Shown here: piece after piece, positions 30,769 to 49,623 of the stretch
Numbering within the stretch: the stretch's first letter is position 1
Layout of the letters: each line of letters opens with the position of its first letter
Sequence record: NC_041869.1
Reading direction: 5' to 3' (one strand)
Length of the DNA stretch: 64,000 bases
Origin: Escherichia phage APECc02
Program-made: the position numbers and the translations under genes
Notes under the pieces: generated by a model
Told to the model about the DNA's origin: nothing
Seen by the model: the letters and a program-made list of their open reading frames with translations, nothing else
The model's database searches: none

Positions 30769-31752
30769 TTAGATTATCTGAATCAGGGTATTTTTCATTT
30801 CTTCTCTGGTTCGGATGTTGTTACGGTCACGAACAACAGATCCACAACCTTCGCAGCGGTATGTTTTAAATGCACTCAGTTGAGTATACGCCAAAGCTTC
30901 TTCCTCGTGAAGGTGTTCTCCACCACAGCGTGGGCAACGAACTTTTGGCTCCTCATCCTGGTAGTACAATGACATGTTGGGGTGCTGCTTAGCAAACGGG
31001 CGAGCCAGCAAATACAGGCCTTCCAGAGATAGGATATCGCCAACATTGTACTCCCGCATCTGTTTAAACGCCTCAAGATCACCGTGAACACACTTGATCC
31101 ACATTTCAAATGTGTGGTCAATCAGTTTCTGTCGGGCAAGTTGGAAGTATTTGCATGCATACTCCAAAGTGTTTGCATTCAAACGGAATGCCTTCTTGAT
31201 CATTTTAAGGGTGTCAACCTCTTTGTAGGGGCTTGTTGGAGGCAATCCGTGAAATGCAAATCGTTGGTTGGCCCACCCACAGTCAAAACCTGAATTGTGG
31301 GCTACTGCGATATCACATTTATCCAGATAATACCACAAATCCTGAATCAATTCGAGATCATTGTGAATATCCTCATCCCACATTTTGTAATCAGGAAGAG
31401 CGCAGTCAACCACACTAGGACTGTCTAACCACTTACCTGCGAAAGTTAGCATGTAGGGCATAATTTCAATACCGCAGGTTTGAATGTTGGTCTTATAGTG
31501 CCCAAAGAACCAGCCGTTTGTTGGAGATGTCTCTGTATCATACACCCAAACTTTAGCACCTTTGTGCTCTTCAAGGAAACGCTCCGTTGCTTCTCCTACA
31601 ATCTCTGACATATTCTCTTGTGCACGTTTAAGCTGTAGTCGGATCCAGCTCTCACGTGACTCACGGCCTAAAAATTCACGAGCAATTTGTCTATTAGTGT
31701 ATCCCTGTTGCTTTAGTGTTAAAATTTGCTCAAGAGTTAACTTTGTCATCAT
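30769..31752 (-). CDS. DnaQ-like 3'-5' exonuclease domain protein with N-terminal HTH-like and C-terminal zinc ribbon
   Basis: VWVYDTETS acidic motif, later H/D residues, CPRCGG...CEGCG. Confidence 0.4.
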   Translation of the reverse strand: MMTKLTLEQILTLKQQGYTNRQIAREFLGRESRESWIRLQLKRAQENMSEIVGEATERFLEEHKGAKVWVYDTETSPTNGWFFGHYKTNIQTCGIEIMPYMLTFAGKWLDSPSVVDCALPDYKMWDEDIHNDLELIQDLWYYLDKCDIAVAHNSGFDCGWANQRFAFHGLPPTSPYKEVDTLKMIKKAFRLNANTLEYACKYFQLARQKLIDHTFEMWIKCVHGDLEAFKQMREYNVGDILSLEGLYLLARPFAKQHPNMSLYYQDEEPKVRCPRCGGEHLHEEEALAYTQLSAFKTYRCEGCGSVVRDRNNIRTREEMKNTLIQII

Positions 31753-45728: not shown

Positions 45729-45825
45729 GCTAGGTAAGCCCTTTGGCAAGGGCGAGGATTTTTAATCCTGAAAATAGACGAGGTAGTCGTTGAATACATA
45801 GGTGGTTCGATTCCATCACCTAGCA
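45729..45825 (+). ncRNA. atypical tRNA-like element (acceptor and T-arm intact; possible TTT anticodon; ~31-nt variable region)
   Basis: GCTAGGT/ACCTAGC acceptor pairing and GGTTCGATTCC T-arm, but non-canonical middle. Confidence 0.3.
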
Positions 45826-45832
45826 CCTTTTT

Positions 45833-46900: not shown

Positions 46901-47184
46901 GAGTTGCTACACTGTTTATTGCGTGCTTGTTATTATGTGGGTGTGCAACCAGCGTTGAGAGAGAATACAAGATTGACCCTCCGGATGTAGGAAGGTTGAT
47001 TGTTAAACCCCCGGAAGGTGCCATGAAACCACCTGCTAAAGCTATGCCTTTGAAGAAAGGTGCTCCAGATGCAGTAAATTCTGGCATTATGAGGGATAAT
47101 AATTTGTCTTGTAGCAATGATAGAGCTAAATTGATCATTTTGCAAGACTATATTAGAACACTGTTTCCAAAGGAGAGAGGTTAA
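46897..47184 (+). CDS. o-spanin-like outer membrane lipoprotein
   Basis: lipobox-like LLLCGC after signal sequence, Pro-rich mature region. Confidence 0.55.
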   Translation: MRVATLFIACLLLCGCATSVEREYKIDPPDVGRLIVKPPEGAMKPPAKAMPLKKGAPDAVNSGIMRDNNLSCSNDRAKLIILQDYIRTLFPKERG

Positions 47185-47618
47185 TGTCTAAGATTTCTAA
47201 GATTTACGGACCGTGTTCTGAAAAGCAGAAGATGATCCTCGAAAACGATGCAGATATTTTGGTAATCGGCGGTGCCGCAGGGTCTGGCAAGTCGTTCCTC
47301 TTGCAGTTGATGCCGCTTAAAATTATTGATGACCCACACAGCTCTGTGGTTATGTTCCGAAGAACAACCCCGCAGTTGGAAGGTGAGGGTGGACTATGGC
47401 CTAAAGCAGTAGCTATTTATAGTGATCTGCCTGAAAACATTAAGCCAAAGTTTAGAGAGAAGGATCATAAGTTCATTTTTCCACGGTTTGATCCGAGCAC
47501 TGGCAAGTGGGATAGAAGCAAAAAGGGAGCTGTTGTAAAATACTGCCACATGGAGTATGTACAAGATAAGCTTAACCATCAGGGGCTTGAGTACACCATG
47601 GTTTGCTTCGATGAGGGT
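47184..47618 (+). CDS. terminase large subunit, exon 1 (ATPase Walker A to Walker B)
   Basis: Walker A VIGGAAGSGKSF; reading frame ends at MVCFDEG then TAA at inferred intron start. Confidence 0.7.
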
Positions 47619-47668
47619 TAATTTGTAGCTCTCGTAAAACCTCCCTAATTGCGGGGAAATCTTTATTA

Positions 47669-47697
47669 TTGACACCACCAACCTGTTATGGTAACAT
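47669..47697 (+). promoter_or_regulatory. sigma70-type promoter inside intron (TTGACA-N17-TAACAT)
   Basis: hexamers read directly, upstream of intron ORF. Confidence 0.45.
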
Positions 47698-47836
47698 AAT
47701 AGAGGCTTCGAAGAGAGATCGAAGGTATGGTAACAGTGTGTTAATTTAGATAATCCGCAGCGAAGCATCCGAGAGGATGAACGTTCAACGACTAGTCGAA
47801 AGACGTAGAATCAAGCGATTCGAAACGGGAGGGTGA

Positions 47837-48427
47837 ATGTGTAATACTAAAAAATGTATGGATTGCCAAAGAGTTCTGCCTATTGATGATTTCTTTTTAT
47901 CATCTAAGAGCAAGGATGGATACTCAGGTACATGCAAGGAATGCTATATGTACTACAGGAAGGGTGGATCTCGTAAAAACAAAAATATGGTTAAGAGAGA
48001 TGACGCAGCATTGTTTATTCAAGACTTGCTGAAGAAAGGTGAACTTTTTGAATGCAAATCTTGTCATGAAAGTATGCTCGCTGATAGTTTTTACACAAAA
48101 CGTGACTATGGTAAAGTATATCTGGTTACGAACAGGTGTAAGATGTGTGAAAAGTTTTATCAGATTGAGAAGAAATTTCACATAACAAAAGATGAATACT
48201 ATCGTCTACTCTCAGATCAAGATCATAAGTGTGCCATTTGTAGAATATCTCTTAATGAGTATAGGACGCAAGGGTACAGAGATTTCTTTTGTGTTGATCA
48301 TGACCATAAAACTGGTGCTGTAAGAGGGTTGCTTTGTGATAAATGCAACAGAGCTTTAGGTTTCTTCCAAGAAGATGAGGAAACTATTCTTAGAGCGGCA
48401 GAGTATTTACACATTCATAAGATATAG
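47837..48427 (+). CDS. Endo VII-like HNH homing endonuclease (intron-encoded)
   Basis: CAICRISL...CVDHDHKTGAVRGLLCDKCNRALGFF matches T4 Endo VII zinc/HNH motif. Confidence 0.7.
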   Translation: MCNTKKCMDCQRVLPIDDFFLSSKSKDGYSGTCKECYMYYRKGGSRKNKNMVKRDDAALFIQDLLKKGELFECKSCHESMLADSFYTKRDYGKVYLVTNRCKMCEKFYQIEKKFHITKDEYYRLLSDQDHKCAICRISLNEYRTQGYRDFFCVDHDHKTGAVRGLLCDKCNRALGFFQEDEETILRAAEYLHIHKI

Positions 48428-48501
48428 TCTGGTCTGCATGGAGACATGCAGCTGCCTGAAAATGGCGGGGCAAGACTAGCGACCTTGCCCGAACATAAAC
48501 G

Positions 48502-49623
48502 ACACAGTTCGAATGGGAGCAGATAGACTATCTGATGTCTCGTCTGCGATCTCAGTCAAAGTATCCATCAAGAATGGTTATCAGCTGTAACCCTGATTCA
48601 GAACACATGCTTGCCAAACTGGTTAGGTGGTGGTTGGACGATGAAGGGTATCCAGATCCGGAGAAATGTGGTAAGAAAAGGTATTTTATCAGGCGTGACG
48701 GTGAATTTATCTGGGGAGACTCTAAAGAGGAGTTGATAGAGAAATACACCACGGTTAACGGACTGGGTGTGGAGATCAAGCCAAGACCGTTGTCATTCTC
48801 GTTTATAGGCGCAACAATATTCGATAATCCTGTCTGCTTGAGAGACAACCCAGAATACCTTGCTTTCCTTGAAGGTCTGCCTGAGCTTGAAAAAGCCCAG
48901 CTTCTTCATGGTAACTGGTTTGCAAAGCCTGAGGGTGCAAACTATTTTCAAAGATCTTTCCTTCGTGATGCCGATAGAGTACCTCTTGGATCAGTGTCTT
49001 GCAGGGCATGGGATAAAGCAGGAACCGAGAGAACTTCCGGTAATAAATTTCCTGACTTTACCGCCAGTGTCAAGGTAAGTAAAGATAGCGACGGCTTTTA
49101 TTACCTGTCCGGGGATTATTGTCCTGAGAACGTGGATGACGGGAGGTATTCCACAGGTCTGGAAGGCAAGTTCTGTAAAAAGGCTGGTGAACGAGATGTG
49201 ATCATCAGGAAACAGGCGCAGTTTGATGGTGATGATTGTATAATCGTATTCTCTGTGGACCCCGGTCAGGCAGGTAAGAGTGAGTTCTTAACCTCCTCCA
49301 GATCCTTGCTTGCCGAAGGGTTTAGGGTTGAAGAAGACCCAATGCCTTCCAACAAATCTAAACTGACAAGGTTCTCACCTTTTGCCAATCTTGCCCAACA
49401 AGGAATGGTGAGGATTGTAAAATCCAGTTTCCATCCTGATACTCTGGAAGCATTTCTGACTGAACTTGAAAAATTCAACGGGGAAAGATCAACATTTAAC
49501 AGAAAAGACGACTGGGCCGACTGTGTAGCTTCTGCGATTAATTTCCTGGAGAAAGAGGAGGTAGCACTTCCTTGTGTGATTCCATCAATCTCATCACCTT
49601 CTATGTTCAAGCGTTTTATCTAA
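48502..49623 (+). CDS. terminase large subunit, exon 2 (nuclease domain)
   Basis: frame open from 48499; contiguous with exon 1 if intron removed; exact 5' boundary inferred. Confidence 0.6.
   Translation, partial: TQFEWEQIDYLMSRLRSQSKYPSRMVISCNPDSEHMLAKLVRWWLDDEGYPDPEKCGKKRYFIRRDGEFIWGDSKEELIEKYTTVNGLGVEIKPRPLSFSFIGATIFDNPVCLRDNPEYLAFLEGLPELEKAQLLHGNWFAKPEGANYFQRSFLRDADRVPLGSVSCRAWDKAGTERTSGNKFPDFTASVKVSKDSDGFYYLSGDYCPENVDDGRYSTGLEGKFCKKAGERDVIIRKQAQFDGDDCIIVFSVDPGQAGKSEFLTSSRSLLAEGFRVEEDPMPSNKSKLTRFSPFANLAQQGMVRIVKSSFHPDTLEAFLTELEKFNGERSTFNRKDDWADCVASAINFLEKEEVALPCVIPSISSPSMFKRFI

What the first reader, a model, noticed from the sequence alone, without database searches (positions are those of the whole stretch)
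47184..49623. Terminase large subunit split by a putative group I intron with an Endo VII-like HNH endonuclease
The ATPase reading frame stops right after Walker B (MVCFDEG, TAA at 47619) and a nuclease-domain frame resumes about 880 bp later. The intervening sequence has matches to group I P, R and S elements, a candidate guide sequence complementary to the exon end, a free-standing HNH ORF with its own RBS, and an internal sigma70-like promoter. Exact splice junctions are inferred, not proven.
Basis: partly seen in the sequence, partly recalled or inferred. Interest (0 to 1): 0.7.

Follow-up and report, generated by a model that had tools for sequence, protein, structure and literature searches.

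The report
Known self-splicing intron in terminase gene
The DNA-packaging (large terminase) gene of this rV5-like E. coli phage is interrupted by an 883-base mobile group I intron that carries its own endonuclease gene; the feature is real and well formed, but it has already been published and annotated for this phage group.

Summary
The window is an rV5-like phage (Vequintavirus). Its terL gene is split at 47618|47619 and 48501|48502 by an 883-nt group I intron.

- **Junction:** very close relatives without the intron read GAT GAG GGC ACG CAG at exactly this point. Joining the exons gives a 518-aa TerL that is 99.8% identical to uninterrupted homologues.
- **Ribozyme:** Rfam Intron_gpI matches full length (46.3 bits, E 2.8e-10). 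ORF-less 319-nt alleles with the same core score 84–85 bits against a cutoff of 50. All core helices can be drawn, and three base pairs show compensatory changes.
- **Splice-site base:** the last exon base is T in 8 of 8 intron-bearing alleles and C in 7 of 7 intron-less alleles.
- **Endonuclease:** the 196-aa ORF sits in the P8 loop and is an Endo VII-motif ("DHHRN") enzyme, not a classical HNH.
- **Allele states:** intron-less, ORF-less intron and intron with endonuclease gene all coexist in the genus.

None of this is new. The rV5 genome paper (2013) reported introns in terminase, Fang et al. (2018) list the JES-2013 orthologue as intron-encoded, and BASEL GenBank records annotate the joined CDS. 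Splicing itself remains untested. Interest is low.

The parts
47184..47618 (+). terL exon 1 (145 codons, ends ...MVCFDEG; Walker A GAAGSGKS and Walker B CFDE)
   Evidence: ORF list. Pfam Terminase_6N profile positions 2-104. Last base T47618 is the U of the P1 U.G pair.
47619..48501 (+). Group I intron, 883 nt, T-even-like (IA-type, with P7.1/P7.2, no P2)
   Evidence: Rfam RF00028 at 47609-48451: 46.3 bits, E 2.8e-10, model 1-253. Boundaries fixed by intron-less alleles. ORF-less alleles score 84.9/84.3 bits.
47613..47633 (+). P1: exon/intron GAGGGU|UA (47613-47620) paired with the internal guide UAGCUCUC (47626-47633); U47618.G47628 marks the 5' splice site
   Evidence: 8 of 8 pairs, invariant in 7 alleles. 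T at -1 in 8/8 intron-bearing alleles, C in 7/7 intron-less alleles.
47640..47645 (+). P3 5' strand CCUCCC; pairs with GGGAGG 47827-47832
   Evidence: 6 of 6 pairs. Matches P3 in the Rfam alignment.
47650..47759 (+). P4-P5 domain: P4 47650-55/47754-59, P5 47659-62/47748-51, P5a 47668-75/47738-45, P5b 47684-90/47695-701 (GUAA loop), P5c 47706-11/47719-24
   Evidence: The MFE fold is identical in three variants. Compensatory double changes at two P5a pairs and one P5b pair.
47766..47779 (+). P6 hairpin CAUCC-GAGA-GGAUG
   Evidence: The loop is GAGA, or GAAA in Aya/ECP26, so it stays GNRA.
47790..47794 (+). P7 5' strand GACUA (within the R element GTTCAACGACTA 47783-47794); pairs with UAGUC 48425-48429
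   Evidence: 5 of 5 pairs. Rfam alignment.
47795..47821 (+). P7.1 (GUC-GAAA-GAC, 47795-47804) and P7.2 (GAAUC-AAGC-GAUUC, 47808-47821), the peripheral helices of IA-type introns
   Evidence: Complementarity. The P7.2 region aligns with the T6 td intron, with pair-preserving differences.
47827..47832 (+). GGGAGG: P3 3' strand and at the same time the Shine-Dalgarno sequence of the endonuclease ORF
   Evidence: Sequence. Pairing. Sits 4 nt upstream of ATG 47837.
47835..48416 (+). Endonuclease-gene cassette that replaces the 20-nt P8 hairpin of the ORF-less intron. Its ends form a 10-bp P8 stem: GAAUGUGUAA 47835-44 / UUACACAUUC 48407-16
   Evidence: BLAST breakpoints against rV5 and JohannBauhin. 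Sequences. 10 of 10 pairs.
47837..48427 (+). Intron ORF, 196 aa: Endo VII-motif (DHHRN) putative homing endonuclease with D154 H155 H157 R163 N171 and six CxxC pairs. The stop codon TAG 48425-48427 lies in the P7 3' strand
   Evidence: Pfam PF02945 at 76.7 bits. PHROG endonuclease VII families. PDB matches to Hpy99I and T4 Endo VII. Residue positions.
48419..48429 (+). S element AAGAUAUAGUC (J8/7 plus P7 3' strand)
48434..48501 (+). P9 (48434-40/48445-51, GAGA loop), P9.1 (48454-56/48464-66), P9.2 (48468-74/48484-90) and the terminal G 48501 (omega-G)
   Evidence: 84% identical over 79 nt to the 3' end of the T6 td intron.
48502..49623 (+). terL exon 2 (373 codons plus stop): rest of the ATPase domain, then the RNaseH-like nuclease domain. 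ACA 48502-04 can pair with UGU 47624-26 (P10)
   Evidence: Pfam Terminase_6N positions 111-211 and Terminase_6C. The spliced protein gives one Terminase_6N hit, positions 2-211, at 72.6 bits. P10.
47669..47697 (+). Sigma70-like match TTGACA-17-TAACAT (TG-extended -10) inside P5a/P5b; function unproven
   Evidence: The -35 hexamer is intact in 5/5 endonuclease-bearing alleles and in rV5, but changed in ORF-less JohannBauhin (TTAATA) and HMD-6 (TCGGCA).
48818..48819 (+). Vacant insertion site of the second terL intron found in rV5 and HdK5 (about 979 nt, HNH ORF); this window lacks it

Best explanation
terL is transcribed as one pre-mRNA containing an 883-nt group I intron of the T-even phage type.

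**Splicing (inferred).** The ribozyme folds into P1 and P3-P9.2. Exogenous guanosine attacks after U47618, which is held in a U.G pair by the guide sequence. The freed exon-1 3'-OH then attacks after the terminal G48501. This ligates GAG GGT^ACA CAG and yields a 518-aa TerL with an intact ATPase domain.

**Mobility (inferred).** The P8 loop carries a 196-aa Endo VII-motif (DHHRN) endonuclease. It most likely cuts intron-less terL alleles of co-infecting relatives near the insertion site. Repair from the intron-bearing copy then copies the intron across, together with the adjacent T at -1 and usually the A at +3. This is homing.

**ORF signals (sequence shown, consequence inferred).** The ORF borrows its ribosome-binding site from the P3 3' strand and its stop codon from the P7 3' strand. 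Translation and ribozyme folding on one RNA molecule should therefore exclude each other.

**Shown versus inferred.** Shown: the sequence and structure match, the exact colinearity with intron-less alleles, the allele polymorphism, and the association of exon bases with intron presence. Inferred: actual splicing, endonuclease activity and its target.
For: Ribozyme:
- RF00028 matches full length, E 2.8e-10.
- ORF-less alleles with the same core score 84.9 and 84.3 bits against a gathering score of 50.
- 80 drawn base pairs are 99.8% paired across 7 distinct alleles. Three pairs have compensatory double changes, and slid controls give 36-39% pairing.
- The 3' domain is 84% identical to the T6 td intron 3' end, and the same region matches T4-type td introns.

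Exon continuity:
- Intron-less alleles are continuous across the predicted junction.
- The spliced product is 99.8% identical in one piece to the TerL of phage MiataMamis.
- It gives a single Terminase_6N hit at 72.6 bits, against 26 and 31.7 bits for the two halves.
- The base at -1 is T in 8/8 intron-bearing alleles and C in 7/7 intron-less alleles. G at -4, which pairs in P1, is A in two intron-less alleles.
- All substitutions in 48502-48534 are synonymous.

Endonuclease and mobility:
- PF02945 at 76.7 bits, with the DHHRN residues present.
- The genus holds about 28 records with the endonuclease-bearing intron, about 23 with the ORF-less intron and about 68 with no intron.

Literature:
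- rV5 'Introns in terminase' (PMC3606486).
- The JES-2013 Endo VII-motif protein is listed as intron-encoded (PMC6083498).
- A terL intron 6 nt upstream in phage CB7 splices by RT-PCR (PMC7344957).
Against: - No RNA or protein data for this intron exist in the searched literature.
- The window's own copy scores 3.7 bits below Rfam's gathering score, which I attribute to the 580-nt insertion in the P8 loop.
- One allele (HeinrichReichert) has an A.C mismatch in P9.2 and another in P8.
- P10 has only 3 base pairs.
- Diversity among the alleles is low (99% mean column identity), so most helices are invariant and say nothing either way.
- Endonuclease activity and target are untested.
Confidence: 0.9

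Rival explanations
1. The insert does not splice. TerL is made as two polypeptides (1-145 and a fragment starting at Met 48535) that assemble after translation, as reported for the mobE-split NrdA of Aeromonas phage Aeh1.
For: Many GenBank records annotate two separate terminase CDSs. An in-frame ATG exists at 48535. Non-splicing gene splits are known (discussed in PMC7344957).
Against: - The ribozyme core is complete and conserved, with compensatory changes.
- The T at -1 needed for P1 tracks intron presence perfectly.
- The 33 nt between 48502 and ATG 48535 would be non-coding under this model, yet they show only synonymous changes.
- ATG 48535 is an ordinary internal Met that is also present in intron-less alleles. 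The nearest GGGAG lies 17 nt upstream of it.
- The split would fall inside the ATPase fold, directly after Walker B.
Confidence: 0.04
2. The intron splices, but the ORF is not an active homing endonuclease. It would be either a decaying passenger or an HNH-type accessory factor of the packaging machine.
For: HNH proteins that assist terminases are known (Kala et al. 2014, cited in PMC7344957). No activity data exist. The ORF sits in the terminase gene.
Against: - The ORF is intact at 95% identity or more in about 28 records, and all five catalytic residues are kept.
- It is optional. About three quarters of close relatives lack it and are viable isolates, so it is not a required packaging factor.
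- Presence/absence polymorphism together with exon-flank marker association is the signature of homing.
- The orthologue is placed in the endonuclease clade, not the resolvase clade, of Endo VII-motif proteins (PMC6083498).
Confidence: 0.1
3. The ORF is a free-standing endonuclease gene inserted between two terminase gene halves, and the group I-like motifs are a chance resemblance.
For: The window's match lies below Rfam's gathering score (one search found nothing at gathering level).
Against: E 2.8e-10 over the full model. The same flanks without the ORF score 84-85 bits. There is 84% identity to the T6 td intron 3' domain. The 319-nt ORF-less form still interrupts the gene.
Confidence: 0.01

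Closest known systems
terL introns of Escherichia phage rV5 and its relatives (Kropinski et al. 2013, Virol J 10:76; GenBank DQ832317 ORF64ABC; BASEL phages such as HeinrichReichert MZ501073)
   Same: Same gene, same insertion site and same intron core (98-100% identical outside P8). HeinrichReichert, JES2013, Gotham and others carry the same intron with the same endonuclease gene at about 98% identity, annotated as a joined CDS plus 'putative homing endonuclease'.
   Different: rV5 itself has the ORF-less 319-nt form at this site plus a second intron (about 979 nt, HNH ORF) at 48818|48819, which this window lacks. No record is identical; the best matches are 98.5% identical.
DHHRN (Endo VII-motif) homing endonuclease family, prototype F-CphI of cyanophage S-PM2 (Fang et al. 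2018, Mob DNA 9:27)
   Same: Endo VII catalytic motif with D, H, H, R and N conserved, within the beta-beta-alpha-metal fold superfamily. The paper already lists the orthologue from Escherichia phage JES-2013 as intron-encoded.
   Different: F-CphI is free-standing, next to an intron-containing psbA gene. This enzyme is inside the intron, and its activity has not been tested. It has two extra N-terminal CxxC...CxxC modules, and the best structural-sequence match is the restriction enzyme Hpy99I.
T-even phage td intron (self-splicing group I intron, subgroup IA2, carrying I-TevI in T4)
   Same: Phage group I intron with P7.1/P7.2. It shows 84% identity over the 79 nt that cover P7', P9, P9.1, P9.2 and the 3' end. 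Both introns start UAAUU after an exon ending GGGU.
   Different: The host gene differs (td versus terL). The endonuclease family differs (GIY-YIG in the P6 region versus Endo VII-motif in P8). This intron has no P2 and has a three-way P5a/b/c extension. The GIY-YIG assignment and subgroup label for td come from general knowledge, not from a test here.
terL introns in other phages: Lactobacillus phage LL-H (Mikkonen & Alatossava 1995) and Pectobacterium phage CB7 (Buttimer et al. 2020)
   Same: Group I introns interrupting the large terminase gene. CB7's lies in the same Walker B segment and was shown to splice by RT-PCR.
   Different: CB7's intron is inserted 6 nt upstream (VD|EGTQF). It carries an HNH ORF between the Q and R elements rather than in P8, and it is not the same intron. 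LL-H was not examined here.

Membership tests
Group I intron (Rfam RF00028) | Sequence-plus-structure match to the conserved core (P1, P3-P9) by covariance model | tested here: met
   The window copy matches the full model 1-253 at E 2.8e-10 and 46.3 bits. That is 3.7 bits below the curated cutoff of 50, because of a 580-nt insertion in the P8 loop. ORF-less alleles with a 98-100% identical core score 84.9 and 84.3 bits.
Group I intron (Rfam RF00028) | 5' splice site after a U that forms a U.G wobble with the internal guide sequence in P1 | tested here: met
   U47618.G47628 lies within an 8-bp P1. T at -1 in 8/8 intron-bearing alleles, C in 7/7 intron-less alleles.
Group I intron (Rfam RF00028) | Intron ends in G (omega-G), and excision restores the host reading frame exactly | tested here: met
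   G48501 is the last intron base. The ligated exons are colinear with intron-less alleles and give one Terminase_6N hit.
Group I intron (Rfam RF00028) | Helices supported by covariation | tested here: met
   99.8% of 560 cells are paired. Three pairs have changes on both sides (P5a twice, P5b once). At most 14 of 500 shuffles reach these values. Most core helices are invariant in this shallow set. P9.2 and P7.2 show pair-preserving differences against the T6 td intron.
Group I intron (Rfam RF00028) | Guanosine-dependent self-splicing of the transcript | not testable with these tools
   This needs in vitro transcription with GTP/Mg2+, or RT-PCR from infected cells. No such data were found for this intron.
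IA-type (T-even-like) group I introns | Extra helices P7.1 and P7.2 between P7 and P3' | tested here: met
   GUC-GAAA-GAC at 47795-47804 and GAAUC-AAGC-GAUUC at 47808-47821. The P7.2 region aligns to the T6 td intron. Subgroup criteria are recalled from general knowledge.
DHHRN / Endo VII-motif homing endonucleases | Endonuclease_7 domain above the Pfam cutoff, with conserved D, H, H, R, N | tested here: met
   PF02945 at 76.7 bits against 23.6. D154, H155, H157, R163 and N171 align to T4 Endo VII D40, H41, H43, R54 and N62 (residue names from PMC6083498).
DHHRN / Endo VII-motif homing endonucleases | Optional element associated with an intron, with presence/absence polymorphism among close relatives | tested here: met
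   The ORF lies in the P8 loop. Intron-less, ORF-less and ORF-bearing alleles all occur at 95% or higher exon identity.
DHHRN / Endo VII-motif homing endonucleases | Site-specific cleavage of the intron-less allele | not testable with these tools
   Needs the purified protein and intron-less terL DNA.
   Only PF02945 was reported at E <= 0.01. Fang et al. separate Endo VII-motif enzymes from HNH because they lack the central Asn. Both belong to the same beta-beta-alpha-metal superfamily.
Large terminase, T4-like type (Terminase_6N + Terminase_6C) | Continuous ATPase domain plus RNaseH-like nuclease domain | tested here: met
   The spliced protein hits Terminase_6N at residues 28-297 (profile 2-211 of 215, 72.6 bits) and Terminase_6C at residues 397-492.

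The most novel reading that the evidence does not exclude
The endonuclease cassette is minimal. It brings no ribosome-binding site and no stop codon of its own, and uses the ribozyme's P3 3' strand (GGGAGG) and P7 3' strand (UAG) instead. Ribozyme folding and endonuclease translation would then exclude each other on any one RNA.

The sigma70-like promoter inside P5a/P5b would start a transcript that lacks the P3 5' strand, which frees the ribosome-binding site. That would amount to a built-in switch separating splicing-competent from translation-competent RNAs. The -35 hexamer is intact in all five endonuclease-bearing alleles examined, but has drifted in two of three ORF-less alleles while keeping pairing.

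Separately, the three coexisting allele states across about 119 sequenced genomes would make this locus a natural record of the homing cycle (gain, endonuclease loss, intron loss).
Probability: 0.3. Interest if true: 0.35.

Novelty: already known. Interest (0 to 1): 0.15.

Why it matters
The main value is practical.
- **Annotation:** many GenBank records of rV5-like phages still split this essential gene into two 'terminase' CDSs, or call exon 1 a 'recombinase endonuclease'. The exact junction (GAGGGT^ACACAG) allows correct annotation.
- **Phylogenetics:** terL is a standard marker, so unrecognised introns distort trees and gene counts.
- **Biology:** this is one more well-preserved example of a mobile group I intron targeting a conserved catalytic motif (Walker B). 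All three stages of the homing cycle coexist in one genus, which could support population-level study of intron gain and loss. It does not open a new question.

Tried and rejected
- **Rfam at gathering threshold on the whole window:** found only tRNAs. The intron appeared only with the permissive scan of the region.
- **First hand-drawn P5a** (CUUUAUUAU/AUAAUAGAG): rejected. It conflicts with the GNRA-capped P5b hairpin, which the MFE fold and the U-A to C-G covariation support.
- **CB7 RT-PCR as direct evidence:** rejected. That intron sits 6 nt upstream and has a different architecture.
- **Sigma70-like promoter as significant:** the scan gives only about 2 sd enrichment of such matches in the region, and the site overlaps structural helices. 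It is kept as a hypothesis only.
- **+3 A/G exon marker as a perfect correlate of intron presence:** rejected. Two intron-bearing alleles (Aya, ECP26) carry G.
- **Intein, group II intron and frameshift readings:** not pursued once the group I match and the intron-less alleles were found.
- **Not used:** the large protein and metagenome searches and structure prediction. The curated phage collection answered the question.
Full report
**What is at the coordinates**

On the + strand an ORF runs 47184-47621 and ends ...EYTMVCFDEG, with TAA at 47619-47621. A 196-aa ORF follows at 47837-48427. A long ORF in the terminase frame is listed from ATG 48535 to 49623, and its frame is already open from 48499. 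Pfam assigns the first piece to Terminase_6N (profile positions 2-104). It assigns the last piece to the rest of Terminase_6N (positions 111-211) plus the RNaseH-like Terminase_6C domain. The middle ORF hits Endonuclease_7 (PF02945, 76.7 bits, cutoff 23.6). The description is therefore accurate. One correction: the downstream exon first completes the ATPase domain and does not start at the nuclease domain.

**Is it a group I intron?**

A whole-window Rfam scan at gathering level found only tRNAs. A permissive scan of 47400-48800 gave a full-length Intron_gpI match at 47609-48451 (model 1-253, 46.3 bits, gathering score 50, E 2.8e-10). In that alignment the ORF is treated as a large insertion in the hairpin before the AAGAUAUAGUC element, which is P8.

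The shortfall comes from that insertion. Phages rV5 and JohannBauhin carry the same intron without the ORF (319 nt), and those copies score 84.9 and 84.3 bits. Outside P8 they are 98-100% identical to the window copy.

I mapped every helix to window coordinates: P1, P3, P4, P5, P5a/b/c, P6, P7, P7.1, P7.2, P8, P9, P9.1 and P9.2. All are fully complementary. On an alignment of seven distinct alleles (P8 left out), 99.8% of 560 cells are paired. Three pairs carry compensatory double changes: U-A/C-G and A-U/G-C in P5a, and U-A/C-G in P5b with a U.G intermediate. Sliding the partners drops pairing to 36-39%. The alleles are very similar (99% mean column identity), so most helices are simply invariant.

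**Exact junctions**

P1 places the 5' splice site after U47618, which pairs with G47628. The intron ends with G48501, and joining gives GAG GGT^ACA CAG. Close relatives with no insertion exist (Shigella phage CM1, AlexBoehm, FV3, MiataMamis and others). My 600-nt spliced construct aligns to them in one piece at 94-98.5% identity. They read GAT GAG GGC ACG CAG TTC at the site. The spliced 518-aa protein matches MiataMamis TerL in one piece at 99.8%. It gives a single Terminase_6N hit of 72.6 bits across the junction.

**Exon bases that track the intron**

In 15 alleles, the last exon base is T in all 8 intron-bearing alleles and C in all 7 intron-less alleles. Both encode Gly, and the T supplies the U.G pair. 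Two intron-less alleles also have A at -4, where intron-bearing alleles of similar background keep the G that pairs in P1. The base at +3 is usually A with the intron and always G without it, but two intron-bearing alleles have G, which still allows a G.U pair in P10. All substitutions between 48502 and the internal Met at 48535 are synonymous. That argues the segment is translated, which in turn requires splicing.

**Allele states in the genus**

Among about 119 records with TerL at 95% protein identity or higher:
- about 28 carry the 883-nt form;
- about 51 carry the intron in either form, so about 23 are ORF-less;
- about 68 have no intron, which fits the count of 89.

In the ORF-bearing form, window 47835-48416 replaces the 20-nt P8 hairpin of the ORF-less form. 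rV5 and HdK5 have a second intron of about 979 nt with an HNH ORF between window 48818 and 48819. This window lacks it.

**The endonuclease**

The ORF has D154, H155, H157, R163 and N171, which align with the catalytic residues of T4 Endo VII. It also has six CxxC pairs. Its best solved-structure relatives by sequence are the restriction enzyme Hpy99I (E 1e-5, residues 57-192) and T4 Endo VII. PHROG families agree on endonuclease VII. No classical HNH profile was hit. Outside Vequintavirus the nearest relatives are only about 30% identical.

The Shine-Dalgarno sequence GGGAGG is the P3 3' strand. The ATG lies in the P8 5' strand. The last codons and the stop (AAG AUA UAG) are J8/7 and the P7 3' strand. 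Ribozyme folding and ORF translation should therefore compete. This is an inference; the general idea is known from T4 introns (my own knowledge).

**The promoter claim**

TTGACA-17-TAACAT with a TG-extended -10 sits at 47669-47697 and is the best match in the region. Ten such matches were found against 4.9 +/- 2.3 expected, and the site lies in P5a/P5b. The -35 hexamer is intact in all five ORF-bearing alleles and in rV5. It has changed, with pairing preserved, in ORF-less JohannBauhin and HMD-6. This is suggestive only, because the sample is small and the alleles are not independent.

**Comparison with what is known**

- The 3' 79 nt (P7' to the 3' end) are 84% identical to the td intron of T6, and the same region matches T4-type td introns. 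Differences in P9.2 and P7.2 preserve pairing.
- The rV5 genome paper has a section 'Introns in terminase' and thanks D. Shub for help in locating the intron (PMC3606486). GenBank DQ832317 annotates a three-part join.
- BASEL phage records annotate a two-part join and a 'putative homing endonuclease' for a copy 98.3% identical to this window.
- Fang et al. 2018 define the DHHRN family from F-CphI and list the Endo VII-motif protein of Escherichia phage JES-2013 as intron-encoded (PMC6083498). JES2013 is 98.2% identical to the window across the locus.
- In the related genus Certrevirus, phage CB7 has a terL intron shown by RT-PCR to splice (PMC7344957). I checked it: it sits 6 nt upstream (VD|EGTQF), has its ORF between the Q and R elements, and scores 35.2 bits. 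It is a different intron at a neighbouring site.
- I found no experiment on the rV5-type intron itself.

**Verdict**

It is an already described and annotated element, so interest is low. The main residual uncertainty is experimental: whether it splices, and whether the endonuclease is active. The only mildly new points are the shared use of core sequences as translation signals, the possible internal promoter, and the clean three-state polymorphism.

Noticed in passing
window 47187-47204: In-frame 9-bp tandem duplication (TCTAAGATT twice) at the start of terL, giving MSKISKIYGP where all 8 relatives examined have MSKIYGP. It explains why all BLAST hits start at query base 10-13.
   Followed up: partly
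window 45729-45827: A 99-nt tRNA-like cloverleaf in the tRNA cluster. ARAGORN calls it 'tRNA-???' with a 4-base anticodon, Rfam tRNA scores it 35.5 bits, and the fold z-score is -3.66. It has a long variable arm and an abnormal anticodon arm (6-bp stem, 3-nt loop). It is not among the six tRNAs reported for rV5 and is not annotated in CM1. It may be a tRNA pseudogene or a tRNA-like element.
   Followed up: partly
window 48818|48819: Vacant insertion site (GCAACAAT|ATTCGAT) of a second terL group I intron of about 979 nt with an HNH ORF. That intron is present in rV5, HdK5, A142 and others. Its 3' domain resembles that of intron 1.
   Followed up: partly
L016 (Pectobacterium phage CB7) 384-1340: CB7's experimentally spliced terL intron lies 6 nt upstream of the rV5-type site, in the same Walker B segment. 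The motif seems to be a repeated target for different introns.
   Followed up: partly
GenBank records of relatives (e.g. L014 ECP26, L004 HdK5, L012 HMD-6): The two terL exons are often annotated as separate genes. Exon 1 is labelled 'putative recombinase endonuclease' in ECP26 and 'hypothetical protein' in HdK5.
   Followed up: no
search results: Eighteen rV5-like genomes (MG0656xx) are deposited as 'Campylobacter phage' with host Campylobacter jejuni, although they are about 98% identical to E. coli Vequintaviruses at this locus. The host label may be wrong, or the preparations may have been mixed.
   Followed up: no
Pseudomonas phage YS35 (MF974178 / NC_073617) about 31216-31637: A stretch resembling this intron's 3' domain lies about 100 nt from an Endo VII-motif ORF. 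Similar intron-plus-Endo VII arrangements may therefore occur in Pakpunavirus-like phages.
   Followed up: no
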